From: Pseudomonadota bacterium
GTDB taxonomy: Bacteria > Pseudomonadota > Alphaproteobacteria > Rickettsiales > UBA6187
Reading direction: 5' to 3'
NCBI GenBank assembly: GCA_027620075.1
Contig: JAQCEY010000001.1
Location: forward strand, 448,718-512,717
Length of the DNA stretch: 64,000 bases
Shown: positions 24,510-61,323 of the stretch, piece after piece
Layout of the letters: each line of letters starts with the position of its first letter
Numbering within the stretch: position 1 is the first letter of the stretch
The notes under the pieces: generated by a model
Databases searched by the model: none
Seen by the model: the letters and a program-made list of their open reading frames with translations, nothing else
What the model was told of the DNA's origin: nothing
Made by a program: the position numbers and the translations under genes

Positions 24510-24657
24510 GGCATTGCTAACTAAACACAGCTTTTGTCATACTGAATTTATTTCAGTATCTTTTTGTCCAATAGCAGATGCTGAAACAAGTTCGGCATGA
24601 CGCAAATATTAACAATTTTGATATTAACTACAAAAACTATGTTTAGTTAACAATGCC
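24510..24657. mobile_element. 148-bp MITE-like element with 26-bp terminal inverted repeats and an 8-bp target-site duplication
   Basis: Left TIR ggcattgctaactaaacacagctttt (24510-24535) matches the reverse complement of the right TIR aaaaactatgtttagttaacaatgcc (24632-24657) at 23/26. It is flanked by a direct ATAATAAA at 24502-24509 and 24658-24665. Internal hairpins are atactgaa-N5-ttcagtat and atgctgaa-N5-ttcggcat. Confidence 0.7.
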
Positions 24658-25940: not shown

Positions 25941-26663
25941 ATGGCAATGACAAAAAACACCGAAGAAACGCAAAAAACGGAAACTCCCAAAGGAATATCT
26001 CGGTATCACCCTGCATTTATAATCGCTACGTGGTTCGGTTCGGGAAAGATTCCTTTTGCACCGGGTACTATGGGCAGCTTTTTCACTTTCCCGCTTTTTA
26101 TTTTATCGCATGTACTTTTTATATTTGCAGATACACAAGAAGAATTTACCAATCTGTATTTATTATGCATAACTTTATTATTCATTATCGGTCAGTGGGC
26201 TACGTCCGTCTATATGAAACGCACCGGCAGACAGGACCCTAAAGAGGTCGTAATAGATGAAGTTGTCGGTCAAATGCTGGTTTTTTTCTCCGGCTTTGTA
26301 CTGGTAGCAACTGCATTACCTATTTTCCATATACTTTATTCCGTTGATGATAAGATACGCTTTTCCATTGACAACCTACAGGACTTGCAAGATTTTTTCA
26401 TTAACAGTGCGATTTTCATTCCTTATACGGTAATGATATCCGTCGTATCACTGGTAGGTTTTATTTTGTTCCGTATCTTTGATATATGGAAACCTTGGCC
26501 TATTAAATGGTGCGACAAAAATATAAAAAGCAGCTTCGGCGTAATGTTCGATGATATTTTTGCAGCCGTTTATGCAATAATCGTAATGTATTTAATTGCC
26601 ATGTTATTGGCATCGGGATTTTTTGCTTATAATGGTGTTGAAAATTTTCCGGCACCACAATAA
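25941..26663 (+). CDS. pgpA: Phosphatidylglycerophosphatase A
   Basis: GSGKIPFAPGTMGS...DEVVGQ...FRIFDIWKPWPI are PgpA motifs. Confidence 0.8.
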   Translation: MAMTKNTEETQKTETPKGISRYHPAFIIATWFGSGKIPFAPGTMGSFFTFPLFILSHVLFIFADTQEEFTNLYLLCITLLFIIGQWATSVYMKRTGRQDPKEVVIDEVVGQMLVFFSGFVLVATALPIFHILYSVDDKIRFSIDNLQDLQDFFINSAIFIPYTVMISVVSLVGFILFRIFDIWKPWPIKWCDKNIKSSFGVMFDDIFAAVYAIIVMYLIAMLLASGFFAYNGVENFPAPQ

Positions 26664-27170
26664 ATGTCAACAGGAAGGGATATGTTTTCATCTGAGATAA
26701 CGGGAAAAGCACACGAGGTTCTCAAAACCCTAAGGAAACGGGAATACAGGCTTGCTACCGCAGAATCATGCACAGGCGGTCTATTATCGGCGGCACTAAC
26801 CGAAATCCCCAACTCATCGGAAGTTTTCGAAAGAGGTTATGTTACTTATTCTAATGAATCAAAAGTAGAACTCCTGACCGTGCCTACTTATTATATAGAA
26901 GATTTCGGTGCGGTAAGTTTTCAGACTGCCATCGCTATGGCAGAGGGTGCTTTACTTATGTCGAGGGCGGATATTTCCGTTTCAATAACAGGTGTTGCAG
27001 GTCCGGACGGAGGCACGAGGCGAACTCCGGTCGGAACGGTCTATATAGCAACTGCATATCAGGGGCATGAAACAGTTTATGAATTACACAGCTTTTCAGG
27101 CAGCCGTAATTCCATAAGGGAAAAAGCGGTTTTTACCGCTTTAGAAATGATACTAAAAAGAATAGATTAG
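26664..27170 (+). CDS. CinA C-terminal domain protein (nicotinamide-nucleotide amidohydrolase PncC-like)
   Basis: LATAESCTGGLLSAALT...SITGVAGPDGG. Confidence 0.85.
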   Translation: MSTGRDMFSSEITGKAHEVLKTLRKREYRLATAESCTGGLLSAALTEIPNSSEVFERGYVTYSNESKVELLTVPTYYIEDFGAVSFQTAIAMAEGALLMSRADISVSITGVAGPDGGTRRTPVGTVYIATAYQGHETVYELHSFSGSRNSIREKAVFTALEMILKRID

Positions 27171-36847: not shown

Positions 36848-38260
36848 TTAAGCACCTGTTTGTTCATTACATTTTTTGCCGCTTACTATAAATTCTTTTA
36901 CCGTATCTATATCATTAGCAAGCACTTCATAGCGTTCTTCGGCAGCCATTAAGCCGTATAGACATTCGGGCAGTTTAGCTTCATCAACTCCTGATTTTTC
37001 AATTGCTTCAGGAAACTTGGCAGGGTGTGCCGTAGCAATTGTTATAATAGGATTACTCCCCTTAACAGCTTTGTCACGGGCAGCCCTAACCCCGGTTGCG
37101 GTATGTGGGTCGATTATCTCGCCCGATTCGTCAAATACCTGTCTAATGGTTTGGCACGTCGCATCATCATCGATGCTCAGACTGCTAAATAATTTTTTTG
37201 CTTCAGCGAGTTTGTCAACCTCAACGGATATCCCCTCGCCTGCTTTAAAGCGTTTCATTATTTCATCTATCCTTTGTGCGTCCTGATTGTACAGATAGAA
37301 AAGATATCTTTCAAAATTGCTTGAAACCTGAATATCCATACTCGGTGACAGGGTTTTTTCCAGACCGCCACGGCTATAATCATTACTTTCAAAGAAACGG
37401 TGTAAAATATCATTTTTATTGGTCGCAACAATAAGCTGTTTTATCGGCAGACCCATTTTTTTGGCTAAAAATCCTGCAAAAATATCCCCGAAATTACCTG
37501 TCGGCACTGAAAATATCATTTCTTTTTCAGGCGAGCCTAGTTTTAAGCCTGCATAAAAATAATAAACTATCTGTGCCATTATACGGCACCAGTTGATTGA
37601 ATTAACCGCAACAAGTGCCTGACCGCTCAAAAAGCCCTGATCGGCAAATAATTCTTTTACGATATGCTGACAATCGTCAAAATTTCCTTCTAAAGCTATA
37701 TTATACACATTATCCGCCAGAACGGTTGTCATCTGCTTTCTTTGTACATCAGACACCCTGTTATGAGGATGCATTATATATATCTGCACATGCTTGCTGT
37801 GCCTACACCCCTCAATAGCCGCAGAACCCGTATCACCTGAGGTAGCACCGACTATAACCACGTCCTGATTACGTTTTGTAAGTATATAATCAAATATCCT
37901 GCCCAAAAATTGCAGGGCAAAATCCTTGAAAGCCATTGTAGGACCATGGAACAATTCTAACAAATATTCGTTTTCGGCTATTTTTTTAACAGGAGCTATA
38001 TCGGCATCACGAAACTGCAAATAGCTTTCTTTTATTATATCTTGCAAAATACTTTGCGGTATTTCATCTTCGATAAAAGGAGTTATTATTTTGAGCATCA
38101 GCTCTTCATATGAAAGCCCCTTAAAAGAAGCTATTTCATCTTTGCCGAAGGTTGGGACGGACTCAGGAACATATAGCCCGCCGTCACTTGCCAGCCCTGC
38201 TATTACAACATCTTCAAAACTTAAAACAGGAGCTTTCCCCCTTGTACTTATATATTTCAT
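36848..38260 (-). CDS. thrC: Threonine synthase
   Basis: MKYISTRG...HGPTMAFKDFALQ (PLP lysine)...GATSGDTGSAA. Confidence 0.9.
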   Translation of the reverse strand: MKYISTRGKAPVLSFEDVVIAGLASDGGLYVPESVPTFGKDEIASFKGLSYEELMLKIITPFIEDEIPQSILQDIIKESYLQFRDADIAPVKKIAENEYLLELFHGPTMAFKDFALQFLGRIFDYILTKRNQDVVIVGATSGDTGSAAIEGCRHSKHVQIYIMHPHNRVSDVQRKQMTTVLADNVYNIALEGNFDDCQHIVKELFADQGFLSGQALVAVNSINWCRIMAQIVYYFYAGLKLGSPEKEMIFSVPTGNFGDIFAGFLAKKMGLPIKQLIVATNKNDILHRFFESNDYSRGGLEKTLSPSMDIQVSSNFERYLFYLYNQDAQRIDEIMKRFKAGEGISVEVDKLAEAKKLFSSLSIDDDATCQTIRQVFDESGEIIDPHTATGVRAARDKAVKGSNPIITIATAHPAKFPEAIEKSGVDEAKLPECLYGLMAAEERYEVLANDIDTVKEFIVSGKKCNEQTGA

Positions 38261-38284
38261 AGCTAGTTTTTTCTCTAAGCCCGA

Positions 38285-39775
38285 CTATCCTTCCAGATAT
38301 CTTTTTTTCAAATGGTTCTTATAGACCTCAACATCAAGTTCGCTTCCGGTAGCACCCTTGACTATCTCGTCAGATGACATTTTAGAGCCTTTTTCATGCA
38401 CGTTCTTATTTAACCATTCTTTTAACGGCTTGAAGTCCCCTTTACCTATAGAAGGCATAATATCGTTGTTATTATGGTTTGCCGCATCAAATAACTGGGA
38501 GGCATAAATAGCACCTAACGTATATGTAGGGAAATATCCGAAAGCACCGTCCATCCAGTGGATATCCTGCATACAGCCATCTTTATCGTCTTTAACCTTT
38601 ATTCCGAGGAACTTCTTCATTCCCTGATTCCACGCCTCAGGCAGGTCTTCAACTTCCATATCTCCCGAAATTATATATTTTTCAATATAATATCTTAAAA
38701 TAATATGGGCAGGATATGTAACCTCATCAGCATCTACCCTTATAAGTGAAGGCTCAACTTTATTATAAATATGGTACAAATTATCAGGGTTAAGGCTTTT
38801 TGACTTTGAGTTAAACTCTTTTTTAAGCACTCCGGATACGAAATTGATGAACTCACGGCTTCTACATGCCTGCATCTCTATCAACAAAGACTGGCTTTCA
38901 TGTATGCTCATACCCCTTGCCTTGCCTACAGGCTGATTAAGCCATTTTTTAGGCAGACCTTCTTCATACATAGCATGTCCGGCTTCATGAACAACCCCCA
39001 TTAAGGACGGTATAAAATCGTCTTTGTCATATCTGGTTGTTATCCTTATATCGGTCGGATACCCACCGCAAAACGGATGCAAACTCTCGTCAAGTCTGCC
39101 GTAATCCCTATCAAATCCTATAACCTCAAGCATTTTAGAAGCTATCATTTTCTGCTTTTCTATATCGAAAGGCCCTTTTATTTGGGTAACTTTTTCAGAC
39201 TTTTGCTTTTCTACCACCTGACTTATAAAATCAGGTAAAAACTCTTTCAGATTATCAAAGACCTTATCTAACTGTTTGGATTTTCTATCAGGGTCGTACC
39301 TGTCAAGTAAAGCATCATATGGCGAACAGCCAAAAGCCTCACCTTTTAATTTTGCAATTTCCCTGACTAAAGAAACAACTTTTTTCAAATGCGGTAATAA
39401 TTTCTTGAAATCATTATTTGACCTTGCCTCACGCCAGACTATCTCACACTTAGCACCTTCCCTTGTAAGCTCGCTTATTAGCTTTGCAGGAACGGAAGCG
39501 TTATGGTTCCAAGCTCTTTTCATTTCATTTAAATTGGCTTTTTGCCAGTCATTTAACTTGCGTCCGTTAATTCCGGCACTTTCTAATAAATCACCCACTC
39601 CGTCATCTGTCAGGATAGCATGATGAATATCGCCTAAGGTTGCCAACTGCTCGGCTCTTGCCTCAGCACCACCGGCAGGCATCTTTGTAGCCATATCCCA
39701 ATGCAGCACCGCACTTGCCTGCTCAATATCGTTTAATTTTTTAAAAATCTTTTCTAAAGTTTTGTAATTATCCAT
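38285..39775 (-). CDS. Carboxypeptidase Taq-type metallopeptidase (M32)
   Basis: HEAGHAMYE zinc motif, the HPF motif (LHPFCGG) and IRVDADEVTYPAHIILRY. Confidence 0.85.
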   Translation of the reverse strand: MDNYKTLEKIFKKLNDIEQASAVLHWDMATKMPAGGAEARAEQLATLGDIHHAILTDDGVGDLLESAGINGRKLNDWQKANLNEMKRAWNHNASVPAKLISELTREGAKCEIVWREARSNNDFKKLLPHLKKVVSLVREIAKLKGEAFGCSPYDALLDRYDPDRKSKQLDKVFDNLKEFLPDFISQVVEKQKSEKVTQIKGPFDIEKQKMIASKMLEVIGFDRDYGRLDESLHPFCGGYPTDIRITTRYDKDDFIPSLMGVVHEAGHAMYEEGLPKKWLNQPVGKARGMSIHESQSLLIEMQACRSREFINFVSGVLKKEFNSKSKSLNPDNLYHIYNKVEPSLIRVDADEVTYPAHIILRYYIEKYIISGDMEVEDLPEAWNQGMKKFLGIKVKDDKDGCMQDIHWMDGAFGYFPTYTLGAIYASQLFDAANHNNNDIMPSIGKGDFKPLKEWLNKNVHEKGSKMSSDEIVKGATGSELDVEVYKNHLKKRYLEG

Positions 39776-48007: not shown

Positions 48008-49789
48008 ATGCACGATACTAAAAATCTCATTTTCGCTATAGTTCTATCGCTTATAGTATTGTTTTGTTGGCAGTATTTCTATGCCGGCCCTAAAATTGAG
48101 CAGGCAAGGAAATATGCCCAAGAGCAGCAGAAAAAGAAGTTAAAAGAGGCACAGATGATGCCGGGCAACGAGCAAGCCTCCACCGCCTCACCGGACGATG
48201 CCTCCGCTTCAATTCAAACACCTGCTATATATAATGAATTAAGAAGTTCGGATAGGCAGAAGGTTTTAGAACAGGTAAAGCGCATAAAAATACAGACCGG
48301 CAAGCTGCATGGCTCCATATCCTTAAAAGGTGCAAGGTTTGATGACCTGACACTCGCTGACCATAAGATTTACAATGATAAAGATGCCGATGAGGTTGCA
48401 CTTTTATCACCGGTCGGTTTATTAGCACCTAAAAACAATGAGGACGACCCCGATCATGAAATAGTTTATTTCTCGGAGTTCGGGTGGCTTAAGGGAGATA
48501 CCTCGGTAACGGTTCCCGATGCCAAAACTATATGGTACTCCGAAGACACAGTGTTGACCCCCGAAAAACCCGTTACATTATCGTGGGATAACAATCACGG
48601 TCTAAAATTCTTTATACAAATTGCAATCGATAAGAACTTTTTATTTACAGTCACAAAAACCATTGAGAATTATGGCAGTGACAGCTATCTGGTATTTCCT
48701 TACGGACGTATCAACAGAGTAAAGGAAAAAGAGCAAACGTTTTTTATATCACATGAAGGTGCTATAGGTGCTATAAACGGCAAGTTATCGGAATTTACCT
48801 ATGAAGACCTAAAGGACGACGGCAAGGTTAAATTCGATAACAGCTCGGGCTGGTTAGGAATTGCCGACAAATACTGGCTAACTACCGTCATTCCCGATCA
48901 AGAACAAAAATTTGATATAAATTTCAGCCACTTTGATAGCAAAGGGCAAGACAAATATCAGGTGGACTATCTCGGTAATAGGATAGAAATTACTCCCGGA
49001 CAGACAATAAACTCTAAAGTTAACCTGTTCGCCGGTCCAAAAGAGGTGAATAAGCTTGATGAATACGGTGAAAAACTAAATATCCCTTTATTTGACCGTG
49101 CGGTAGATTTCGGAGTGCTATATTTCCTGACCAAGCCTATTTATAAGCTTTTGATGATATTCTACGGTTTTGTAGAAAATTTCGGTATTGCAATAATGAT
49201 GCTTACGGTTCTTTTGAAGCTGTGCCTGTTTCCTCTTGCCAACAAGTCATATGTCAGTATGCACCATTTAAAAAGACTGCAACCGCAAATGCTTGATATA
49301 AAAGAGCGTTATAAAAACGATAAGGTGGCAATGAACAAAGCCATGATGGATTTATATAAAGAGGAAAAAGTAAACCCTATGTCCGGTTGCTTGCCTATTT
49401 TAATTCAAATTCCTATATTCTTTGCACTATATAAGGTTTTATTCGTAACTATAGAAATGCGGCACGCACCTTTTTACGGGTGGATAAACGATTTATCCGC
49501 ACCGGATCCTACTACTATATTTAACCTTTTCGGTTTATTACCTTTCGATCCTCCACAGATATTAATGGTAGGTGCATGGCCGATAATTATGGGTATTACA
49601 ATGTTCCTGCAACAAAAGATGAGTCCTGCACCGACTGATCCGGTACAAGCTAAAGTTATGAAGATGTTGCCGTGGATATTCGTATTTTTGTTATCCACCT
49701 TCCCTGCCGGTTTAGTTATATACTGGGCATGGAACAACACTCTTTCTATTTTACAACAATGGGTTATAACCAGACGTCTGCCGAAATGA
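48008..49789 (+). CDS. yidC: Membrane protein insertase YidC
   Basis: 593 aa with an N-terminal TM segment, a periplasmic domain and a C-terminal 60-kDa insertase core (GCLPILIQIPIFFALY...). Confidence 0.9.
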   Translation: MHDTKNLIFAIVLSLIVLFCWQYFYAGPKIEQARKYAQEQQKKKLKEAQMMPGNEQASTASPDDASASIQTPAIYNELRSSDRQKVLEQVKRIKIQTGKLHGSISLKGARFDDLTLADHKIYNDKDADEVALLSPVGLLAPKNNEDDPDHEIVYFSEFGWLKGDTSVTVPDAKTIWYSEDTVLTPEKPVTLSWDNNHGLKFFIQIAIDKNFLFTVTKTIENYGSDSYLVFPYGRINRVKEKEQTFFISHEGAIGAINGKLSEFTYEDLKDDGKVKFDNSSGWLGIADKYWLTTVIPDQEQKFDINFSHFDSKGQDKYQVDYLGNRIEITPGQTINSKVNLFAGPKEVNKLDEYGEKLNIPLFDRAVDFGVLYFLTKPIYKLLMIFYGFVENFGIAIMMLTVLLKLCLFPLANKSYVSMHHLKRLQPQMLDIKERYKNDKVAMNKAMMDLYKEEKVNPMSGCLPILIQIPIFFALYKVLFVTIEMRHAPFYGWINDLSAPDPTTIFNLFGLLPFDPPQILMVGAWPIIMGITMFLQQKMSPAPTDPVQAKVMKMLPWIFVFLLSTFPAGLVIYWAWNNTLSILQQWVITRRLPK

Positions 49790-50418
49790 TGAATGAAAAT
49801 GAAGATTTAGACATTGAAAAAGGAAAATGGCTGTTTTCCGGTCAATGTGATTTTAAAATAGGAGCTACCGAGCTATCGCATATACCGGAATCGGATATAA
49901 GCGAGGTGGCTTTTGCGGGTCTTTCTAATGTCGGTAAATCCAGCCTTATTAATGCTATAACAGGCAGGACTACCCTTGCCAGAACTTCAGTGACACCCGG
50001 TCGCACAAGGCAATTGAACTTTTTTCTGCTTAGGGACTGCTTAACTTTAGTTGATTTACCCGGCTACGGCTATGCAAAGGCTTCTAAAAAAGATATTAAG
50101 GGCTGGACGGATCTTACCAAAAAATACTTAAAAGGTCGCCCTAACCTTGCAAGGGTTATGCTGCTTGTAGACTCCAGAAGAGGCTTAAAGGACAGTGACC
50201 GCAGTATCATGGATTTATTGGACGAATCGGCGGTAAACTACCAAATAATATTAACAAAATCCGATAAAGTAAAAAAACTAGATGTAGAAAAAATTATTTC
50301 TGATATAAAGGCAGAGGCTCATAAGCATATTGCACTTCATCCGGAGGTAATCACTACAAGCAGCCGGAAAAATATCGGAATAGATACGATTAGAGCCATA
50401 ATTGCAAGTTTTACATAA
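49786..50418 (+). CDS. engB: Ribosome biogenesis GTPase YihA/EngB
   Basis: VAFAGLSNVGKSSLINAI...DLPGYGYA...TKSDK. The likely start is the ATG overlapping the yidC stop (ATGA). The upstream part of the track ORF lies inside yidC. Confidence 0.85.
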   Translation: MMNENEDLDIEKGKWLFSGQCDFKIGATELSHIPESDISEVAFAGLSNVGKSSLINAITGRTTLARTSVTPGRTRQLNFFLLRDCLTLVDLPGYGYAKASKKDIKGWTDLTKKYLKGRPNLARVMLLVDSRRGLKDSDRSIMDLLDESAVNYQIILTKSDKVKKLDVEKIISDIKAEAHKHIALHPEVITTSSRKNIGIDTIRAIIASFT

Positions 50419-50433
50419 GAACGATTAAAAAAT

Positions 50434-51345
50434 ATGTCACAAAAATCTAAAGAAAAAGATAGAGTCAAGCAATTAGAAAAAGCCAAGATTTTATCCGAAG
50501 CATTACCTTATATGCGTCAATTCGCAGGCGAGACTTTCGTCATAAAATATGGTGGCAGTGCTATGGGCAACCCTGAGCTTGCAAAGACTTTTGCACGAGA
50601 TGTAGTTATGCTCAAACAGGTAGGTATCAACCCTATCATTGTGCATGGCGGAGGGCCTCAAATAAGCTCTATGCTTGAGAAGCTTAAGATACAAAGCTCA
50701 TTTATTGACGGTTTAAGGGTAACCGATCAGGCTACCGTTGAAATAGTTGAGATGGTGCTTTCCGGCTCCATAAACAAACAAATAGTGTCCGAGATAAATA
50801 TGGCAGGCGGTATGGCTATAGGTATTTCGGGTAAAGATGGCGGTCTTATATCAGCCAGAAAACTAAGACGCACAAAAAGTGACCCCGATTCAAATATCGA
50901 ACAGATACTTGACCTTGGTTTTGTAGGAGAACCGACAGATATTAACCCTGAAACACTGGTTATGTTTGAAGAATCCGATATAATTCCCGTTATAGCCCCG
51001 ATAGGTAGAGGGGCAAATGGTGAAACATATAATATAAACGCCGATAGTGCTGCCGGAGCTATTGCCTCTTCAATTGCGGCAACAAAATTACTAATGTTGA
51101 CCGATGTACCGGGGATATTGGATAAAAACGGCGAGCTTATATCTGAAATAACCATTAGTCAGGCTCAAAAACTGATTAGGAACAAGACCATATCCGGCGG
51201 AATGATTCCAAAGGTAGAAACTTGTATCAACGCTCTTAACAACCATACCGAGGCAGCACATATATTAGACGGAAGACTACCGCATGTGTTGTTACTTGAA
51301 ATATTCACCGAACTTGGTACAGGCTCAATGATATTGCAGGGTTAA
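50434..51345 (+). CDS. argB: Acetylglutamate kinase
   Basis: [10 protein letters not shown]...IVHGGGPQI...[12 protein letters not shown]. Confidence 0.92.
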
Positions 51346-51373
51346 GTTTATTGAACACTCTATAGCCCTTTAA

Positions 51374-51519
51374 ATTATAGTATTTACACTTTTGTACACG
51401 CATGATTGTCATCCCCGCTTTATGCGGGGATCTACCGTCAATTTAAATTAGATCCCCCTATAATTGCCTACGACAATTCGGGGGATGGCAGCAGTATTGA
51501 AAAGTGTGAATACTATAAT
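51374..51519. mobile_element. 146-bp MITE-like element with 20-bp terminal inverted repeats and two GC-rich hairpins
   Basis: Left TIR attatagtatttacactttt (51374-51393) matches the reverse complement of aaaagtgtgaatactataat (51500-51519) at 19/20. Internal hairpins are atccccgc-N5-gcggggat (51411-51431) and atccccc...gggggat (51452-51486). No clear TSD. Confidence 0.6.
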
Positions 51520-51530
51520 CGACAAATCCG

Positions 51531-52112
51531 TTAATTCTTAACAACAAAATCAATGCCGCTTATTATATCACTGTTATTGACGATGCTTACCAGTTCTTCG
51601 TGCAATCCGTCTTCGCTAAATTCCGTCAAAGACTCATCGGCAATTTTAACGACATACTGCCCCGGCACTACACCTGAGAAAATATAAAAGCCGTCAAACT
51701 CGCTTTTTGTTTCCTTAACCACCTCCCCTTCATTGTTAACCAGTTGCATAGTGATTCTTGCTATACCTTTAGTATCTTCACCCTGCTCCAAATATACCGT
51801 TCCATCTATCTCCGTAGTCAGATAAACCGGAAAATCAAGCTCGTTCATGGCTCCGGGTCTTGTTACAACATGGTATCCTTCCACCTTAGGCATCCAAAAC
51901 GGGTCTTCCAATGTTGTAATATCTATCCTTACGGGTGAATTCTTATATGCTTCTATATTCGGGATAACCACCGGAGATGTATCATTTCCTTTGAATTTAC
52001 CGTTTTCACTTATAAAACCGACATCAGGTATAACTTCGTCACCATCGTCAAAAATACCGTTATAGTTATTATCAAGGAACGCCCTTAGACTCAAAGCACC
52101 CTCATTTGACAT
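51531..52112 (-). CDS. Usher C-terminal fragment with SdrD-B-like and CarboxypepD_reg-like beta-sandwich repeats (same frame as 52149-54215)
   Basis: No signal peptide. FLDNNYNGIFDDGDEVIPDV is an SdrD-B-type motif, and DGTVYLEQ...ITMQLVNNEGEVVKETKSEFDGFYIFSGVVPGQYVVKI is a CarboxypepD_reg-type motif. The frame stays open up to the TAG at 52149-52151. Confidence 0.6.
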   Translation of the reverse strand: MSNEGALSLRAFLDNNYNGIFDDGDEVIPDVGFISENGKFKGNDTSPVVIPNIEAYKNSPVRIDITTLEDPFWMPKVEGYHVVTRPGAMNELDFPVYLTTEIDGTVYLEQGEDTKGIARITMQLVNNEGEVVKETKSEFDGFYIFSGVVPGQYVVKIADESLTEFSEDGLHEELVSIVNNSDIISGIDFVVKN

Positions 52113-52148
52113 ATCCCTATCACTGAAGAACCATCTATCTTGGCGCGG

Positions 52149-54215
52149 CTAATGCCCCATTGAGAAAGAAAGTCTTGTTCCTGCCGTGATATTATCCTGA
52201 TCGTCAAAACCGGCAACGGTACTTAAGGTAAAATATTTAAAGCGTTTATTGAGCGATATGTTAAGCGAGGTAATATCCTCCCCTACCAAATCCTTTCTTA
52301 TATTAAACCTTGCATTTGTTTCACGGGTTATTTGCTTTTGTCCTATAAAGTTTATACTTGTTATCTGCGACTCGGGAGTTATATCATAATCGGCACTCAA
52401 CCTTAATGAGGCATTTTTATATCTGGCACGGACAGACAAACTACCGCCTGACGTATCCGTAATCGTTGAAGAATCTTTTGTTGACGTATAATCGACATTA
52501 TTAGTCAAGCCTATACCGAAGAATGTAGTCGAAAGTCTGTTACTAAAGGTGCTTATTTCCCTTTCATTTTCAAATACTTCATGCTCTGTGCTAAAACGGT
52601 AAGCAATACCTGAAGAATTAAGGCTGCTTATCCTTCCGTCCAAGTCTACCTTGCTTGTCATAAGGCGTTGTTGTGAGCCTGATTCTTCTATTTCACTTAC
52701 AAAATCATCATAAAATGCCTGCCTTGCCCTGACATTTATCTCCTTTATCTTGGCATTTGCCAATATCTCGCTTGCCCACCCTCCATCTGTCGAGTCATAT
52801 ACAAAGTTAACATCGGTAAGCATTCCGGCAGAGAACAGCTTATTAAAACTATTTGTTACCCCTATTGATTGATAATTATGGAATTTTCCATCTTCTAACG
52901 GGGTGCGGATAAACCCTACACTACCGGTAACCGAAGAAGTTAATCCGTAATCAAAATCGGCTACATACCTCTCCCCTAATTCATGCCTTATTATATCATC
53001 ATCTTCATCTATACCGAAAATCGTTTCTGACTTTCTATCGACTGAAAATCGATAAGTAAAATCACCTTTCGGCAAAATTGAGTTATCTATAAGATAAGTT
53101 TCCGTTTTTTCCTTAACCTGACCTTGCGGACCATATGACACTATCCTGAATATATTGTTACCGAAAAAGATAGGAACGTCATTAAATTCATATCTGCCGT
53201 CATCGCCTACTATTTGAAAATCAACCAGAACACCGTTCCTGTAGATTTCAACCTCCCAACCGGGTTGCTCGTCACCTACAAAATTTGTTGAGTCAAAGTC
53301 ATCTGCAACATCAAGGTCTTTATTTGAAACGGTGAATCCCGTTCCCCTGCCTCTTGACGTAACCATTGACACGGGAACCGACGTAATGTCACCGAATGAA
53401 TATGATTTAGCGTCAGCTTTACCGAGCAAGCCTCCGTCTTCACTGCTACGCCCCATATTGAACCTTAATGCAGTCAGCGAGTCCCTGTTATCACCTGCTA
53501 CGGTCAGTTGTGCGGTATGGTAGGCAAGATCACCCTGAGATATAACCGAATATGTAGAATTATGCGGAGAAGCACTTTGATTGCTATAATCGTAACCCAA
53601 ATCAAAATCAACGAACGGATATGAAGCAATTTCGTAAGGTTTTTTGATGACATCATAACCCTTGTCGTCAATTCCCATCTTACGTAAACTTTTAGTGCGT
53701 ATTTTTTCTCTTTCCATACGCTCCTGAAAAGGAAGACTTTCACGGGGCTTTACAAACAAGACCAAGTCAGAGAAGTTTAGCTCAAGATCGACAGGAAACC
53801 ACTGCGAAAAATAAGAGGAATCCACATAAAGATCATTAAAACCTTTGCTGATTATCCTGCCGTCCAGTTTTTTCTTCACCCCTTCTACAACAACTTCGCC
53901 TGCTGCCACATCAAGAACGAAAATCCTATTTTCCTTTATAAACCAACCGCTAGCCGATTCATTTTGATAATCAACTTTCACCTGAAATTCTAATATATTT
54001 GCAAGCATACCCAGAGGTACCAAAAAACCTCCGTCATACTGGTAAACTTCCACTATCTCACCCGTACCGAGTTTATTAACAAATATCTCCGTAAGGACTA
54101 GGTTGTCTTCTGAAAGCTCTATCTTTTGGTAACCGGTATTTTCAGTCGCATAAACGTTTGAACAAAAAAAGCCCGTTATACTAAACATTAATATAAAAAA
54201 TATGCTACGGCACAT
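52149..54215 (-). CDS. Fimbrial outer-membrane usher, N-terminal 688 aa, ending at an in-frame TAG
   Basis: Signal peptide (FFCSNVYA|TEN), an usher N-terminal domain (VNKLGTGEIVEVYQYDGGFLVPLGML), a plug-like segment (GWEVEIYRNGVLVDFQIVGDDGRYEFNDVPIFFGNNIFRIVSYGPQG) and a long beta-rich region. It lies downstream of a PapD-like chaperone. Confidence 0.75.
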   Translation of the reverse strand: MCRSIFFILMFSITGFFCSNVYATENTGYQKIELSEDNLVLTEIFVNKLGTGEIVEVYQYDGGFLVPLGMLANILEFQVKVDYQNESASGWFIKENRIFVLDVAAGEVVVEGVKKKLDGRIISKGFNDLYVDSSYFSQWFPVDLELNFSDLVLFVKPRESLPFQERMEREKIRTKSLRKMGIDDKGYDVIKKPYEIASYPFVDFDLGYDYSNQSASPHNSTYSVISQGDLAYHTAQLTVAGDNRDSLTALRFNMGRSSEDGGLLGKADAKSYSFGDITSVPVSMVTSRGRGTGFTVSNKDLDVADDFDSTNFVGDEQPGWEVEIYRNGVLVDFQIVGDDGRYEFNDVPIFFGNNIFRIVSYGPQGQVKEKTETYLIDNSILPKGDFTYRFSVDRKSETIFGIDEDDDIIRHELGERYVADFDYGLTSSVTGSVGFIRTPLEDGKFHNYQSIGVTNSFNKLFSAGMLTDVNFVYDSTDGGWASEILANAKIKEINVRARQAFYDDFVSEIEESGSQQRLMTSKVDLDGRISSLNSSGIAYRFSTEHEVFENEREISTFSNRLSTTFFGIGLTNNVDYTSTKDSSTITDTSGGSLSVRARYKNASLRLSADYDITPESQITSINFIGQKQITRETNARFNIRKDLVGEDITSLNISLNKRFKYFTLSTVAGFDDQDNITAGTRLSFSMGH

Positions 54216-54345: not shown

Positions 54346-55179
54346 CTATAGTTCTATTTTTTCACTAGCTAATATCTCGCCGCCTTCTTTGGCTTTGGCT
54401 TTGTACTGCACCTCAAGAGTTCCTCCATCGATACTTACACCTTCGGGAACGTCCAGCATCACCTTGAATCTTCTATTTTTATTAGGTGAATATACCGCCA
54501 GACCCCCCATAGATTTCAGTATGAGTTCCGTTCCGTCTTTAGCTTTATAAAGAACTATAATATCACCGTACATTGAGCTGTTACCGGTTCTGGTTATATC
54601 AAACTCAACACTTTTAATGCCGTCATCATTTGAAACAAGTTTAAGGTCGTTTATCTGTCCTGTTGCAGAAATTTCCCCCTGCCTTATTATTACCGGTATT
54701 GTAACTCCGAAATTCGCCTTAATACTGATAATTAACGAGTTATCAGTCTGCTCACTGTTTTTTTCACGTTCGGTAGTATCTTCATTAACTATCTTGAAAT
54801 TCAAATGCGACCTATACTCACCGTCTTCAAGATCGGCAGGTTTTCTTGCCAATATCCTTACATTCTGGTGTTCACCGGGTTGTAAAGTGATTCTGCGTGG
54901 AGATATCCTTAACATATCGGTAGCGAATTTTTCACCTTCGATTGCTTCCTCATCGTCACCTATAGGCACTATAGTACCGTCCTCCTGCATTCTCCTATTC
55001 ACTATGGAAATGGCATATGTTCCTTCCACATTACCGTTATTTGCAACGGATACCGATGCACTACGGGTTCTTCCGTCCAGCAATACTCTTGTAGGTGTGA
55101 TTAAAAGACCCGGTTTTTCTTGTGCGAATGCCACCTCTGAGAACGCTAGGAAAACTATTAAAAAAAGTACCTTTTTCAT
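54346..55179 (-). CDS. PapD-like periplasmic pilus chaperone
   Basis: Signal peptide, then LLITPTRVLLDGRTRSASVSVANNGN and RISPRRITLQPGEHQNVRI, the two hallmark strands of fimbrial chaperones. The size suits a two-domain chaperone. Confidence 0.75.
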   Translation of the reverse strand: MKKVLFLIVFLAFSEVAFAQEKPGLLITPTRVLLDGRTRSASVSVANNGNVEGTYAISIVNRRMQEDGTIVPIGDDEEAIEGEKFATDMLRISPRRITLQPGEHQNVRILARKPADLEDGEYRSHLNFKIVNEDTTEREKNSEQTDNSLIISIKANFGVTIPVIIRQGEISATGQINDLKLVSNDDGIKSVEFDITRTGNSSMYGDIIVLYKAKDGTELILKSMGGLAVYSPNKNRRFKVMLDVPEGVSIDGGTLEVQYKAKAKEGGEILASEKIEL

Positions 55180-55191
55180 TAAAATTCCTTC

Positions 55192-55677
55192 TTAATCGTA
55201 ATTTATATCAATGTTATAACAAGGAGTAAGGACTCCGCCGGGCGTACTTGAATTAATCACCAAGGTGGCTCCATATGTCAGATTTTGCCCTCTCCATGCA
55301 GGAGGAAGTCCGTTAGCTGAGTTTATAAAGTTAACCCCGGAATAATTAGCGACAAACCTTCTAAGCTGCAGTCCCAAGGCAGAATTACTTGAGCATTCGT
55401 CAAATGATATCTGTATATCATTCCTTCTGCTTCCCGATATTCTATCACGACCTGCCGATACGGCAGTAGTATCAAGCATTATCGCCGTTGTTCCGCCACC
55501 TACGGAACCGTTTCTTCTAACTACGATACTTACATTACCCGAAGTTGGCTTTGCCACTTTGCCAAAATTGAGTTCACGGATATTTACCGCCCGCTGTGCG
55601 TAAGAATCGATAGATATGAGAATAAACGCAAATGTAATAAATGCTGTAATAATTTTATATTGCATTAACTTAAACAA
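55192..55677 (-). CDS. Secreted pilus subunit 3 (DUF4402/SCPU-like)
   Basis: Signal peptide (SIDSYA|QRA), LNFGKV motif, and a C-terminal YGATLVINSSTPGGVLTPCYNIDINYD shared with the ORFs at 55986 and 56770. Confidence 0.7.
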   Translation of the reverse strand: MFKLMQYKIITAFITFAFILISIDSYAQRAVNIRELNFGKVAKPTSGNVSIVVRRNGSVGGGTTAIMLDTTAVSAGRDRISGSRRNDIQISFDECSSNSALGLQLRRFVANYSGVNFINSANGLPPAWRGQNLTYGATLVINSSTPGGVLTPCYNIDINYD

Positions 55678-55789: not shown

Positions 55790-55977
55790 TATAGGAACCT
55801 CTACAAAACTCAAAAAACTTACTCTCCCCTTGAGGGAGAGTTAAAAACACGAAGTGTTTTTGTGAGGGGTGGAAACTTGCAAGTGTTTTTTATACCTGCA
55901 TGTGTCGCCCCCTCCCTAACAAAGAAGATACTGAAACAAGTTCAGTATGACAAAAACTATGTTTAGTTAGCAATAAC
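55790..55977. repeat. Composite intergenic repeat inside the pilus cluster
   Basis: ctctccccttgagggagag, aaaacacgaagtgtttt, gtgaggggtgg and ccccctccct match modules at 31123-31215. tactgaaacaagttcagtatgacaaaaactatgtttagttagcaat matches the right half and TIR of the 24510 element. Confidence 0.6.
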
Positions 55978-55985
55978 GATAAATA

Positions 55986-56480
55986 TTATTCGTAATAGAT
56001 TGCAATGTTGAAGTCAGGCTCATAATAACCTGATTGTGTATCTCCGTTAACCTTAAGGGTAGCACCTAACTTAAGCTTAGCGTCCCGACCCGGAGCAGAC
56101 CTAACAATATTGTTATCCCCGTTATCTGCTCCGTTCGAGTAGCTCACAACGAAATCATCAATCTTCACTTTAGACTCTTGTGTGCTTTCACTTGCTACGG
56201 ATATTTGTATCGAGTTACTTGTTGAACCGCTTATCCTATACTCGCTTTCAGGCATTTGTCTTACATATTCCTCTTTGCCGCCATTGTTTTTTTTCTGAAA
56301 CAACTTTTGGAAAAAAGAAACCGAAGTATCAATGCTCAATGTTTCAAAACCGCTTTCCTGACTAAAAACCGTCGGTTCAACTATTTCTACACTTGCAACA
56401 GCGCTAGCCTTAATGGCTTTTGCTTCAAATGAAGCAGAACACATTAATACCGGCAGCAATGTTGCGTATAAAAGTTTCAC
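55986..56480 (-). CDS. Secreted pilus subunit 2 (DUF4402/SCPU-like), GTG start
   Basis: Signal peptide (SFEAKA|IKA) and a C-terminal LGATLKVNGDTQSGYYEPDFNIAIYYE. Confidence 0.65.
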   Translation of the reverse strand: MKLLYATLLPVLMCSASFEAKAIKASAVASVEIVEPTVFSQESGFETLSIDTSVSFFQKLFQKKNNGGKEEYVRQMPESEYRISGSTSNSIQISVASESTQESKVKIDDFVVSYSNGADNGDNNIVRSAPGRDAKLKLGATLKVNGDTQSGYYEPDFNIAIYYE

Positions 56481-56769: not shown

Positions 56770-57282
56770 TTAGTCGTAAGTTACTTCAACATCATAACTT
56801 GGGCTATGTGTACCGGTTGCAACTGTTGAATCAACGGTAAGTGTTGAACCGATATTAAATATGTCCGTTCCGCCTGTTAATGTAGCACCTGTTAAAGACC
56901 CACCTGATAATGCTTGACCACCGAATGTTCCTGTAAAGCTACCTAGGCTTAACCCTGTAATAGCAGTTGTATCTGTAATGGTTATAGAAACCGTTTCTGT
57001 AGAAGCACCTGAAATATTTACGGTTCCTTCCGATCCTGTAGTGTCGATATAATCTGCCGTACCTGCTAATACGCCTGTATCGCTTACCACTGCTGTAACC
57101 GAACCTGATGTCGGCTGAACGATTTTACCGAAATCCATATCGTTGTTAGCAACCACTTGTAACGGAGCCACTATATCAACTGTTGCGGTGTTATTTACTG
57201 TAACTGCATTTGCTGCCGAATAAGAAAATACAACACCTGTTAAAACCGAACCTGCTAATAATTTTTTAATAGAACTTTTCAT
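56770..57282 (-). CDS. Secreted major pilus subunit candidate (DUF4402/SCPU-like), Thr/Gly/Ser-rich
   Basis: Signal peptide (SYSAANA|VTV), MDFGKIV motif, and a C-terminal IGSTLTVDSTVATGTHSPSYDVEVTYD. It is the first gene of the cluster and has its own terminator. Confidence 0.75.
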   Translation of the reverse strand: MKSSIKKLLAGSVLTGVVFSYSAANAVTVNNTATVDIVAPLQVVANNDMDFGKIVQPTSGSVTAVVSDTGVLAGTADYIDTTGSEGTVNISGASTETVSITITDTTAITGLSLGSFTGTFGGQALSGGSLTGATLTGGTDIFNIGSTLTVDSTVATGTHSPSYDVEVTYD

Positions 57283-57354: not shown

Positions 57355-57383
57355 ACTGTACCATGTTTTTGACACACTGTCAA
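57355..57383 (-). promoter_or_regulatory. Candidate sigma-70 promoter of the pilus cluster with a palindromic operator over the -35
   Basis: On the minus strand: TTGACA (57383-57378), a 17-nt spacer, then TACAGT (57360-57355). The -35 is half of the perfect palindrome TTGACA-cac-TGTCAA (57369-57383). Confidence 0.45.
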
Positions 57384-61179: not shown

Positions 61180-61323
61180 GTCATTCCTGCGAAGGCAGGA
61201 ATCTATTATAATACTGAATTATATTTCACCCTGAATTTATTTAAGGGTCTTACTAATCTCAAATTAGATTCTAAAACAAGTTCAGAATGACATTGTCATT
61301 CCCGCCTTTGCGGGAATGACAAT
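61180..61323. repeat. Cluster of palindromic REP-like repeats
   Basis: gtcattcctgc-gaag-gcaggaatc (61180-61203), attctaaa-acaag-ttcagaatgac (61268-61291), and a perfect 14-bp stem attgtcattcccgc-cttt-gcgggaatgacaat (61292-61323). Confidence 0.7.

What the first reader, a model, noticed from the sequence alone, without database searches (positions are those of the whole stretch)
52113..52151. A single in-frame TAG splits the usher gene, and the frame continues open into the downstream ORF
The 688-aa usher ORF ends ...SFSMGH-TAG (stop at 52149-52151). Reading on in the same frame gives PRQDRWFFSDRD and then MSNEGALSL..., the 193-aa ORF at 51531-52112, with no further stop. Joined, the product would be about 894 residues, a normal usher size, whereas the 688-aa piece alone would lack the periplasmic C-terminal domains. 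The downstream piece has no signal peptide, so it cannot act as an independent periplasmic or surface protein. This could be a very recent nonsense mutation (an incipient pseudogene), a sequencing or assembly error, or an on/off or read-through control point for piliation.
Basis: seen in the sequence. Interest (0 to 1): 0.7.

Follow-up and report, generated by a model that had tools for sequence, protein, structure and literature searches.

The report
Recent stop codon truncating a pilus usher
A single G-to-T change has put a stop codon into the gene for the outer-membrane pore that assembles a pilus, cutting off its two inner domains; this is an ordinary, very young gene-inactivating mutation, not a new mechanism.

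Summary
On the minus strand, a 688-codon ORF (54215..52152) ends in TAG (52151..52149). The same frame then runs open for 205 more codons to TAA (51533..51531), 894 codons in all.

It is a real, very recent nonsense mutation in a distant chaperone-usher gene.
- A sister lineage (GCA_002787635.1, 92.9% nt identity, no indels) has one intact 894-aa gene with GAG (Glu) at codon 689.
- A syntenic 70%-identical ortholog also has GAG. 22 of 22 aligned homologs have E, D, N or K there.
- 81 of 81 related loci have one uninterrupted frame across the junction.
- The TAG allele is 100% identical in an ENA assembly, a Logan contig seen in 3 samples, and an NCBI MAG (one of four carrying this protein). 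A sequencing artefact is therefore very unlikely.
- TAG is a normal stop elsewhere in the window.

An AlphaFold model (pLDDT 90.7) matches the FimD and PapC ushers (Foldseek E = 2e-28). The stop falls one residue after the 24th barrel strand, so both C-terminal periplasmic domains are lost. The downstream piece shows no decay: dN/dS is 0.07 against 0.09 upstream, with one replacement on this branch.

The most likely result is loss of piliation. Usher pseudogenes are well known, so interest is low. The gene family itself is large and un-named.

The parts
52152..54215 (-). 5' piece of the usher-like gene (codons 1-688). Predicted domains: signal peptide about 1-23, N-terminal periplasmic domain 39-157, helix 162-180, and a 24-strand beta-barrel at 201-687 with a plug-like sandwich at 309-376 inserted after strand 6.
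   Evidence: ORF. AlphaFold model with pLDDT 90.7 and DSSP strand list. The top 18 Foldseek hits are all FimD or PapC ushers, E = 2e-28 to 3e-14.
52149..52151 (-). In-frame TAG at codon 689, a derived nonsense codon (GAG to TAG, one G>T change on the coding strand).
   Evidence: GAG (Glu) at this codon in sister lineage L085 and in syntenic ortholog L003. The alignment column reads E13, D7, N1, K1 in 22 homologs. The conserved motif is G-[HRK]-E-P-R.
51531..52148 (-). 3' remainder of the same gene (codons 690-894 plus TAA): a linker and two beta-sandwich C-terminal domains. No longer translated as part of the usher. Annotated in public MAGs as a separate 193-aa 'SdrD B-like domain-containing protein'.
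   Evidence: Same frame with no further stop. Pfam SdrD_B and CarboxypepD_reg hits. Model strands 696-893. Public naming. dN/dS against the sister lineage is 0.071. Only 1 amino-acid change is assignable to this branch.
54346..55179 (-). PapD-like periplasmic chaperone gene (277 aa), intact.
   Evidence: Pfam PapD_N 31.8 bits against a cut-off of 23. A homolog lies within the fetched flanks in 75 of 81 related loci. dN/dS against the sister lineage is 0.085.
55192..55677 (-). DUF4402 gene 1 (presumed pilus subunit), intact. Public gene calls start at 55665 (157 aa).
   Evidence: Pfam DUF4402 E = 3.5e-10. dN/dS 0.11.
55986..56480 (-). DUF4402 gene 2 (presumed pilus subunit), intact.
   Evidence: Pfam DUF4402 E = 6.3e-8. 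dN/dS 0.098.
56770..57282 (-). DUF4402 gene 3, the first gene of the cluster (presumed major subunit), intact.
   Evidence: Pfam DUF4402 E = 1.6e-12. dN/dS 0.20. A promoter-like site lies upstream at 57383..57355; this is a consensus match only.

Best explanation
The gene is a highly diverged outer-membrane usher of a chaperone-usher pilus operon: three DUF4402 subunit genes, a PapD-like chaperone, then the usher. In this lineage a single G>T substitution changed codon 689 from GAG (Glu) to TAG.

Translation therefore stops one residue after the last strand of the 24-strand barrel. The product keeps the signal peptide, the N-terminal recruitment domain, the barrel and the plug, but lacks both C-terminal periplasmic domains.

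In FimD and PapC those domains receive the chaperone-subunit complex from the N-terminal domain and hold the growing fibre. Deletion experiments show that all soluble usher domains are needed for assembly. By analogy, the truncated usher should insert in the outer membrane but fail to polymerise or secrete subunits, so the pilus is lost.

The 205-codon remainder has no signal peptide and no well-spaced ribosome-binding site, so it cannot supply the missing domains in the periplasm.

The mutation is real, and it is the only allele assembled for this lineage. It is also very young: nothing else in the gene or the operon has decayed.

Shown here: the stop, its ancestral codon, its position in the predicted fold, its recurrence in independent assemblies, and the absence of decay. 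Inferred: loss of pilus assembly.
For: - Sense codon in relatives. The sister lineage (L084-L091; GCA_002787635.1 and several JGI, ENA and Logan assemblies) has an 894-aa gene of identical length. It is 92.9% nt identical and has GAG at codon 689. The syntenic 70%-identity ortholog L003 also has GAG. 22 of 22 aligned homologs have E, D, N or K there.
- No relative is split here. 81 of 81 related loci have one uninterrupted frame across the junction. All of the best 150 hits among 5,111 strong family representatives are 841-1531 aa, and nearly all match through to the C-terminal domains.
- The allele is reproducible. The DNA is 100% identical over every compared stretch in ENA ERZ23495042, in a Logan SRR2026986 contig seen in 3 samples, and in NCBI GCA_027621865.1, one of four NCBI assemblies carrying the same truncated protein. 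No intact version of this allele exists in its 90% cluster.
- It is an usher. The AlphaFold model has pLDDT 90.7, and the top 18 Foldseek hits are all FimD or PapC. A PapD_N chaperone is adjacent.
- The C-terminal domains matter. PMC3394950 states that deletion experiments show all soluble usher domains are required in vivo. PMC3960871 describes the hand-over from the N-terminal domain to the C-terminal domains.
- The mutation is recent. dN/dS against the sister lineage is 0.087 for the N piece and 0.071 for the C piece, with no indels. In the C piece, 1 replacement falls on the window branch and 5 on the intact sister branch. The rest of the operon is intact with dN/dS 0.085-0.20.
- TAG is a normal stop. 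It ends 12 other ORFs in the window, including a complete M32 peptidase gene.
Against: - No reads were available, so within-population polymorphism at this base could not be examined.
- The equally low dN/dS of the downstream piece is also what continued function would give, for example through read-through.
- Loss of function is inferred from FimD and PapC, which share only about 11-12% sequence identity with this protein. Nobody has tested whether the C-terminal domains are essential in this family.
- It is not known whether the ENA, Logan and NCBI assemblies come from fully independent samples.
Confidence: 0.8

Rival explanations
1. Leaky or programmed read-through. The TAG is partly read through, by a near-cognate tRNA or a suppressor tRNA encoded elsewhere. 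A small amount of full-length usher is made, and the stop acts as a throttle or an on/off point for piliation.
For: - The downstream 205 codons are perfectly preserved, with dN/dS 0.071 and only one replacement on this branch.
- The base after the stop is C (TAG-C). From general knowledge of E. coli termination, this is one of the weaker contexts.
- The literature on S. Typhi usher pseudogenes raises suppressor tRNAs as a possibility (PMC5809473).
- A second homolog (L092) has an independent in-frame stop in the same linker.
Against: - No ortholog has a stop here: 0 of 81 loci, and 0 of 22 in the alignment column. It is therefore not a conserved recoding site.
- TAG terminates 12 other ORFs in the window.
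- There is no tRNA gene in the window.
- The RNA around the stop folds no better than shuffled sequence, z = -0.29.
- There is no repeat or homopolymer that would make the change reversible.
- Preservation of the downstream piece is explained equally well by a very recent mutation.
Confidence: 0.08
2. Sequencing or assembly artefact. The true base gives GAG and the usher is intact.
For: - It is a single-base difference.
- G>T changes are a known type of oxidative library artefact (general knowledge).
- The other split homolog (L092) sits on a 3.2x-coverage contig, which shows that such errors could enter assemblies.
Against: - The same base is present in every assembly compared, each 100% identical to the window over the compared stretch: an ENA metagenome assembly, a Logan contig found in 3 samples, and an NCBI MAG with a 400-kb contig. 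Four NCBI assemblies carry the same truncated protein, with contigs up to 622 kb.
- No intact variant of this allele was found among about 15 billion proteins.
Confidence: 0.04
3. Functional split or neofunctionalisation. The usher without its C-terminal domains still works, for example as a secretion pore for unpolymerised subunits. Alternatively, the downstream piece is translated separately from ATG 52112 and has a role of its own.
For: - The stop falls exactly at a domain boundary, leaving a complete barrel, plug and N-terminal domain.
- An ATG lies 12 codons downstream, and public pipelines call a 187-193-aa gene there.
- The S. Typhi paper speculates that truncated ushers may still export subunits (PMC5809473).
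Against: - The downstream piece starts MSNEGALSLRAF..., with no hydrophobic signal sequence, so it could not reach the periplasm.
- The only purine-rich stretch (AGGGA) lies 1-2 nt from the ATG, too close for a Shine-Dalgarno site (inference).
- No promoter-like site above chance lies upstream of it.
- Every examined relative keeps the domains fused.
- All soluble domains are required in PapC and FimD (PMC3394950).
Confidence: 0.05

Closest known systems
Usher pseudogenes in chaperone-usher fimbrial operons of Salmonella enterica serovar Typhi (stgC, sthC, bcfC)
   Same: The usher gene of an otherwise intact fimbrial operon is disrupted, while the subunit and chaperone genes remain. Operons containing such pseudogenes gave no visible fimbriae (PMC5809473).
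   Different: The case here is in an uncultured 'Rickettsiales bacterium' MAG lineage and in a far more divergent usher family. The mutation is demonstrably very young: the intact allele in the sister lineage is 93% nt identical, and nothing downstream has decayed. No phenotype data exist.
FimD / PapC outer-membrane ushers (classical chaperone-usher pathway)
   Same: The predicted architecture is the same: signal peptide, periplasmic N-terminal domain, 24-strand barrel with a plug inserted after strand 6, and two C-terminal beta-sandwich domains. Foldseek gives E = 2e-28 to FimD 3rfz_B. A PapD-like chaperone gene is adjacent.
   Different: - Sequence identity is only about 10-13%.
- There is no Pfam PF00577 hit for this protein, and only 2 of 23 family members give sub-threshold hits.
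- The N-terminal domain resembles Cu_amine_oxidN1 by sequence.
- The last C-terminal domain scores as SdrD_B / CarboxypepD_reg (matches at residues ~803-868).
- The subunits are DUF4402 proteins rather than the Fimbrial or SCPU families.
Archaic (sigma) chaperone-usher pili such as Csu and CupE
   Same: Both are widespread environmental chaperone-usher systems with a small operon of several short subunits, a chaperone and an usher (background from PMC10104325, abstract).
   Different: From my own knowledge, not tested here, archaic ushers are recognised by the Pfam Usher model and their subunits by SCPU. Neither model matches here. No direct comparison with CsuD or CupE was made.

Membership tests
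Chaperone-usher pathway outer-membrane usher (FimD/PapC type) | 24-stranded beta-barrel translocation domain | tested here: met
   DSSP on the AlphaFold model (pLDDT 90.7) gives 6 + 18 long strands between residues 201 and 687. The FimD and PapC translocation domains 3ohn and 2vqi match at E about 1e-16. This rests on a predicted structure, not a solved one.
Chaperone-usher pathway outer-membrane usher (FimD/PapC type) | Plug domain inserted between barrel strands 6 and 7 | tested here: met
   A six-strand sandwich at 309-376 lies between barrel strands 290-297 and 386-395. It contains the family's most conserved motifs, GW[ED]VE[LI]Y and YGPQG.
Chaperone-usher pathway outer-membrane usher (FimD/PapC type) | Periplasmic N-terminal domain that recruits chaperone-subunit complexes | tested here: inconclusive
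   A folded N-terminal domain at 39-157 is present, and full-length FimD aligns over about 920 columns. By sequence, however, it resembles Cu_amine_oxidN1. Its equivalence to the usher N-terminal domain was not tested separately.
Chaperone-usher pathway outer-membrane usher (FimD/PapC type) | Two C-terminal periplasmic beta-sandwich domains fused to the barrel | tested here: not met
   They are encoded at codons 696-894 but separated from the barrel by TAG at codon 689 in this window. The feature is met in the intact sister allele P0121 and in 81 of 81 related loci.
Chaperone-usher pathway outer-membrane usher (FimD/PapC type) | Sequence match to Pfam Usher PF00577 | tested here: not met
   No hit at E <= 10 for the window protein. 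2 of 23 homologs give PF00577 hits at best E = 0.0029, which I take to be below the gathering score (the alignment-mode table lists no bit scores or cut-offs). No PDB usher was found by profile sequence search.
Chaperone-usher pathway outer-membrane usher (FimD/PapC type) | Adjacent gene for a PapD-like periplasmic chaperone | tested here: met
   The gene immediately upstream (55179..54346) scores PapD_N 31.8 bits against a cut-off of 23. Homologs were found within the fetched flanks in 75 of 81 related loci.
Chaperone-usher pathway outer-membrane usher (FimD/PapC type) | Pilin subunits with an incomplete Ig fold completed by donor-strand exchange | tested here: inconclusive
   Three DUF4402 genes lie upstream. 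The AlphaFold model of one, built from only 9 sequences, was poor (pLDDT 52) and was not used. There was no PDB sequence match.
Pseudogene by recent nonsense mutation | Orthologs carry a sense codon at the position, one substitution away | tested here: met
   GAG is found in L085 (93% nt identity) and in L003 (70% aa identity), against TAG here.
Pseudogene by recent nonsense mutation | The stop is reproducible in independent data, not an assembly error | tested here: met
   Identical sequence was found in ENA, Logan (3 samples) and NCBI assemblies. Raw reads were not inspected.
Pseudogene by recent nonsense mutation | Loss of the protein's function | not testable with these tools
   Loss of function is inferred from the requirement for the C-terminal domains in PapC and FimD (PMC3394950, PMC3960871).
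Programmed stop-codon recoding (suppression, pyrrolysine, code change) | The stop codon is conserved at the site in orthologs, or TAG is reassigned genome-wide | tested here: not met
   0 of 81 loci have a stop at the junction. TAG ends 12 other ORFs here, usually with another stop within a few codons, and ends a complete M32 peptidase gene.
Programmed stop-codon recoding (suppression, pyrrolysine, code change) | Suppressor or dedicated tRNA in the genome | not testable with these tools
   No tRNA gene lies in the 64-kb window. The rest of the genome was not available.
Programmed stop-codon recoding (suppression, pyrrolysine, code change) | Stimulatory RNA structure next to the stop | tested here: not met
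   The 141 nt around the stop fold at -33.2 kcal/mol against a shuffled mean of -32.2, z = -0.29.

The most novel reading that the evidence does not exclude
The barrel-to-C-terminal-domain linker of this usher family could be a recurrent, selectable 'off' (or 'low') point for piliation. Stops arising there would leave a stable plugged barrel. Low-level read-through of the weak TAG-C context would still supply a little full-length usher. Natural populations would then toggle or throttle the pilus under grazing or phage pressure.

Three observations hint at this: the second, independent in-frame stop 16 codons further on in a 28%-identical homolog (L092), the chaperone frameshift in one sample of the sister lineage (L087), and the perfectly preserved downstream piece.
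Probability: 0.06. Interest if true: 0.55.

Novelty: new member of a known kind. Interest (0 to 1): 0.22.

Why it matters
For this genome, the main consequence is for annotation. The two public gene calls, a 'hypothetical protein' of 679-688 aa and an 'SdrD B-like domain-containing protein' of 187-193 aa, are two halves of one usher. They should be annotated as a single disrupted gene, and this lineage should be scored as probably non-piliated for this system.

Biologically, it catches a pilus operon at the first step of inactivation. The intact allele survives in a sister population at 93% nt identity, so the pair is a natural contrast for asking what selects against this pilus.

Of wider interest is a by-product of the work. 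The gene belongs to a very large family, with about 5,000 50%-identity clusters at E <= 1e-30. These proteins have an usher fold but no Pfam or NCBIfam model for the barrel. They pair with PapD-like chaperones and, in at least 48 of 81 loci, with DUF4402 proteins. That looks like an un-named branch of the chaperone-usher pathway, common in environmental Proteobacteria, Nitrospinota, Acidobacteriota and Desulfobacterota.

Tried and rejected
- TAG reassignment or recoding: rejected. TAG ends 12 other ORFs, including a complete M32 peptidase gene, and no ortholog shares the stop.
- Suppressor tRNA in the window: none found. The rest of the genome could not be examined.
- RNA structure at the stop: none beyond chance.
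- Internal promoter or terminator near the stop: promoter-like sites are fewer than in shuffled sequence and none is placed to serve the downstream piece.
- Sequence-level link to known ushers: Pfam and NCBIfam gave no hit for the barrel, and a PDB profile search found only SdrD- and NOMO-like matches to the last domain. The link was made by fold instead.
- Structure of a DUF4402 subunit: the homolog search returned only 7 proteins. The resulting model was poor (pLDDT 52), so it was not searched. A PDB sequence search gave nothing.
- dN/dS against the 70%-identity ortholog: dS was saturated. The analysis was redone with the 93% nt sister lineage.
- Literature look-ups for the sample and assembly accessions and for DUF4402: nothing found. 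PMC151958 (Thanassi 2002) is not held.
- Paralogous usher in the window that could complement: none.
- The three extra genes next to the usher in L003, as possible adhesins: no DUF4402 similarity and no trace in the window.
Full report
**1. The observation**

Read on the minus strand, the window has an ATG at 54215. The ORF ends ...RLSFSMGH followed by TAG at 52151..52149. The same frame then continues PRQDRWFFSDRD-MSNEGALSL... without a further stop to TAA at 51533..51531.

Frame continuity is not remarkable in itself. Among about 50 long ORFs in the window, four other adjacent pairs are also in frame with an open spacer. The two I checked are unrelated complete genes: M32 carboxypeptidase followed by threonine synthase, and PgpA followed by CinA. 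The significance comes from homology.

**2. The two pieces are one gene in every relative examined**

- A search with the joined sequence found 156 homologs. Nearly all are 880-1100 aa and cover 90-100% of the joined query.
- In an alignment of 22 of them, the column under the TAG reads E (13), D (7), N (1), K (1), inside a conserved G-[HRK]-E-P-R motif.
- A scan of one genome per GTDB species returned 80 loci. With the syntenic locus L003, 81 of 81 carry one uninterrupted frame across the junction.
- A profile search of 1.84 billion cluster representatives found 5,111 proteins at E <= 1e-30. The best 150 are all 841-1531 aa, and nearly all match through to the C-terminal domains.

**3. The ancestral codon**

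The 90% cluster of the 688-aa piece also contains an intact 894-aa protein (P0121 = PIR39210.1, from GCA_002787635.1). The same protein was assembled on 15 contigs from JGI, ENA, NCBI and Logan data. Its gene has exactly the same length as the window's joined frame, is 92.9% nt identical with no indels, and has GAG at codon 689. The more distant syntenic ortholog L003 (70% aa identity, 881 aa, same neighbours on both sides) also has GAG. The window allele therefore arose by a single G>T change on the coding strand.

**4. It is not an artefact and not a code change**

- DNA 100% identical to the window, TAG included, is present in three kinds of assembly. These are an ENA assembly (ERZ23495042, 14 kb compared), a Logan contig of SRR2026986 recorded in three samples, and NCBI GCA_027621865.1 (5 kb compared).
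- The truncated protein has four NCBI accessions, on four contigs of up to 622 kb, named 'Rickettsiales bacterium' or 'Pseudomonadota bacterium'.
- No intact version of this particular allele is in the collection.
- TAG terminates 12 other ORFs in the window, usually with another stop a few codons on. One of them is an M32 peptidase gene that matches its Pfam model end to end.
- The window has no tRNA gene.
- The RNA around the stop folds no better than shuffled controls, z = -0.29.
- There is no repeat tract at the site that could make the change reversible.

**5. What the gene is**

Pfam and NCBIfam do not recognise the 688-aa piece as an usher. The only hit is a sub-threshold Cu_amine_oxidN1 match. 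The downstream piece scores as SdrD_B / CarboxypepD_reg. A PDB profile search by sequence finds no usher.

The fold settles the question. An AlphaFold model built on 98 sequences has mean pLDDT 90.7, and its 18 best Foldseek matches in the PDB are all FimD or PapC ushers (E = 2e-28 to 3e-14, 10-13% identity). The predicted domains are:
- signal peptide, residues 1-23;
- N-terminal domain, 39-157;
- six barrel strands, 201-297;
- a six-strand plug-like sandwich, 309-376, which carries the family's most conserved motifs;
- eighteen more barrel strands, 386-687;
- two beta-sandwich domains, 696-894.

That makes 24 barrel strands with a plug after strand 6, plus one N-terminal and two C-terminal periplasmic domains. 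This is the five-domain usher plan described in PMC3394950 and PMC3960871.

The context agrees. Directly upstream lie a PapD_N chaperone (31.8 bits against a cut-off of 23) and three DUF4402 genes. A chaperone homolog lies within the fetched flanks in 75 of 81 related loci, and DUF4402 homologs in at least 48. Two of 23 family members give weak PF00577 hits (E = 0.003), a faint sequence trace of the same relationship. That the DUF4402 proteins are the pilins is inference: my model of one was too poor to use (pLDDT 52).

**6. What the stop does**

Codon 689 is one residue past the last barrel strand (676-687). The product should therefore be a complete barrel with plug and N-terminal domain, lacking both C-terminal domains.

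In type 1 and P pili, chaperone-subunit complexes are recruited at the N-terminal domain and then handed to the C-terminal domains, which hold the base of the fibre while the next subunit docks (PMC3960871). Deletion experiments show that all soluble usher domains are needed in vivo (PMC3394950). By analogy, the truncated usher should be inserted in the membrane but unable to assemble pili.

The remainder cannot help in trans. It begins MSNEGALSLRAF..., with no signal sequence. Its ATG is preceded by AGGGA at a spacing of only 1-2 nt, and there is no promoter-like site placed to serve it. No second usher is encoded in the window. These last steps are inferred, not shown.

**7. Age of the mutation**

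- Against the sister lineage, dN/dS is 0.028/0.322 = 0.087 for the upstream piece and 0.0145/0.204 = 0.071 for the downstream piece.
- With L003 as outgroup, the seven amino-acid differences in the downstream piece split as one on the window's branch, five on the intact sister's branch, and one ambiguous.
- The three subunit genes and the chaperone are intact, with dN/dS 0.085-0.20. The flanking housekeeping genes give 0.02-0.08.

The stop is therefore very young compared with the split between the two lineages (dS about 0.2-0.3). Alternatively, the downstream part is still under selection. These data cannot separate the two, which is why I leave some weight on read-through.

**8. Comparison with what is known**

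The closest precedent is the set of usher pseudogenes in Salmonella Typhi fimbrial operons (stgC, sthC, bcfC). Operons containing pseudogenes gave no visible fimbriae, and the authors discuss suppressor tRNAs and export through truncated ushers as possibilities (PMC5809473). A nonsense-mutated usher is thus a known kind of event. This one is a new instance, in an uncultured lineage and in a divergent family.

The public annotation treats the two halves as separate genes, which is misleading.

**9. Verdict**

This is a real, reproducible and very recent nonsense mutation, an incipient pseudogene, in a distant-family usher. It most probably abolishes this pilus (confidence about 0.8). The rivals are leaky read-through (0.08), a functional split (0.05) and an artefact (0.04).

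Interest in the finding itself is low. The family it belongs to is the more interesting by-product: an usher fold, thousands of members, and no family model for the barrel. Two further observations may be worth a follow-up: a second independent stop in the same linker (L092) and a chaperone frameshift in one sister-lineage sample (L087).

Noticed in passing
window 51531-54215 (-) and loci L003-L092: The usher-like protein belongs to a very large un-named family. The A2 profile finds 5,111 50%-identity cluster representatives at E <= 1e-30 and 13,213 at E <= 1e-10. The genome scan found over 529 loci in Alpha- and Gammaproteobacteria, Nitrospinota, Acidobacteriota, Desulfobacterota and others. 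The barrel has no Pfam or NCBIfam model, and public names are 'hypothetical', 'sporulation protein' or 'SPOR domain-containing'. Together with PapD-like chaperones and DUF4402 proteins, it looks like an undescribed branch of the chaperone-usher pathway.
   Followed up: partly
L092:3200-3400 (ENA ERZ21818092 NODE_23272, 3.2x coverage): A 28%-identical homolog (P0102, also 688 aa by coincidence) has an independent in-frame TGA, 16 codons after its GREPR motif. That puts it in the same barrel-to-C-terminal-domain linker, where most relatives have Gly (motif AxxGAxSxRVF). The frame stays open for the rest of the C-terminal domains. At this low coverage it may be a sequencing error.
   Followed up: partly
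L087:5186-6014 (JGI 3300025007, sister lineage with intact usher): The chaperone gene is split into 100-aa and 152-aa ORFs by a 5-bp deletion (GCCCG) at codon 100, relative to L084. The deletion is not in a repeat tract. This is a second, independent disruption of the same operon in a related population, or else an assembly error.
   Followed up: partly
window 55922-55974, 24513-24565 (inverted copy), 61263-61296 (partial); L084/L085:3990-6347: A palindromic intergenic repeat of about 53 nt occurs at least three times in the window. At the copy between DUF4402 genes 2 and 1, the sister lineage carries a 2.3-kb insertion encoding a DNA methylase and a 366-aa ORF. This is a possible restriction-modification cassette inserted into the pilus operon.
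   Followed up: partly
L003:10708-13990 versus window 51346-51530: The 70%-identity syntenic relative has three extra genes (71, 467 and 562 aa, no Pfam hits, no DUF4402 similarity) between the usher and argB. The window and its sister lineage have only a short intergenic spacer there.
   Followed up: partly
window 51411-51431: A perfect 8-bp-stem hairpin (ATCCCCGC-ATAAA-GCGGGGAT) lies in the 185-bp spacer between the convergent usher and argB genes. It may be a bidirectional terminator. The consensus scan did not flag it because no T-run follows. This spacer does not align with the sister lineage's 310-bp spacer.
   Followed up: no
window 55841-55821 (-): A terminator-like hairpin with a T-run lies after the second DUF4402 gene and before the third subunit gene. 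It is placed like the attenuators that follow major-pilin genes in classical fimbrial operons. This is a consensus match only.
   Followed up: no
window 36848-39775 (-), 25941-27170 (+), 49672-51345 (+), 54346-55677 (-): Four other adjacent gene pairs are in the same frame with an open spacer (M32 peptidase/thrC, pgpA/cinA, ysxC/argB, DUF4402/chaperone). The two pairs checked by Pfam are unrelated complete genes. Open read-through frames alone are therefore common here and not diagnostic.
   Followed up: yes
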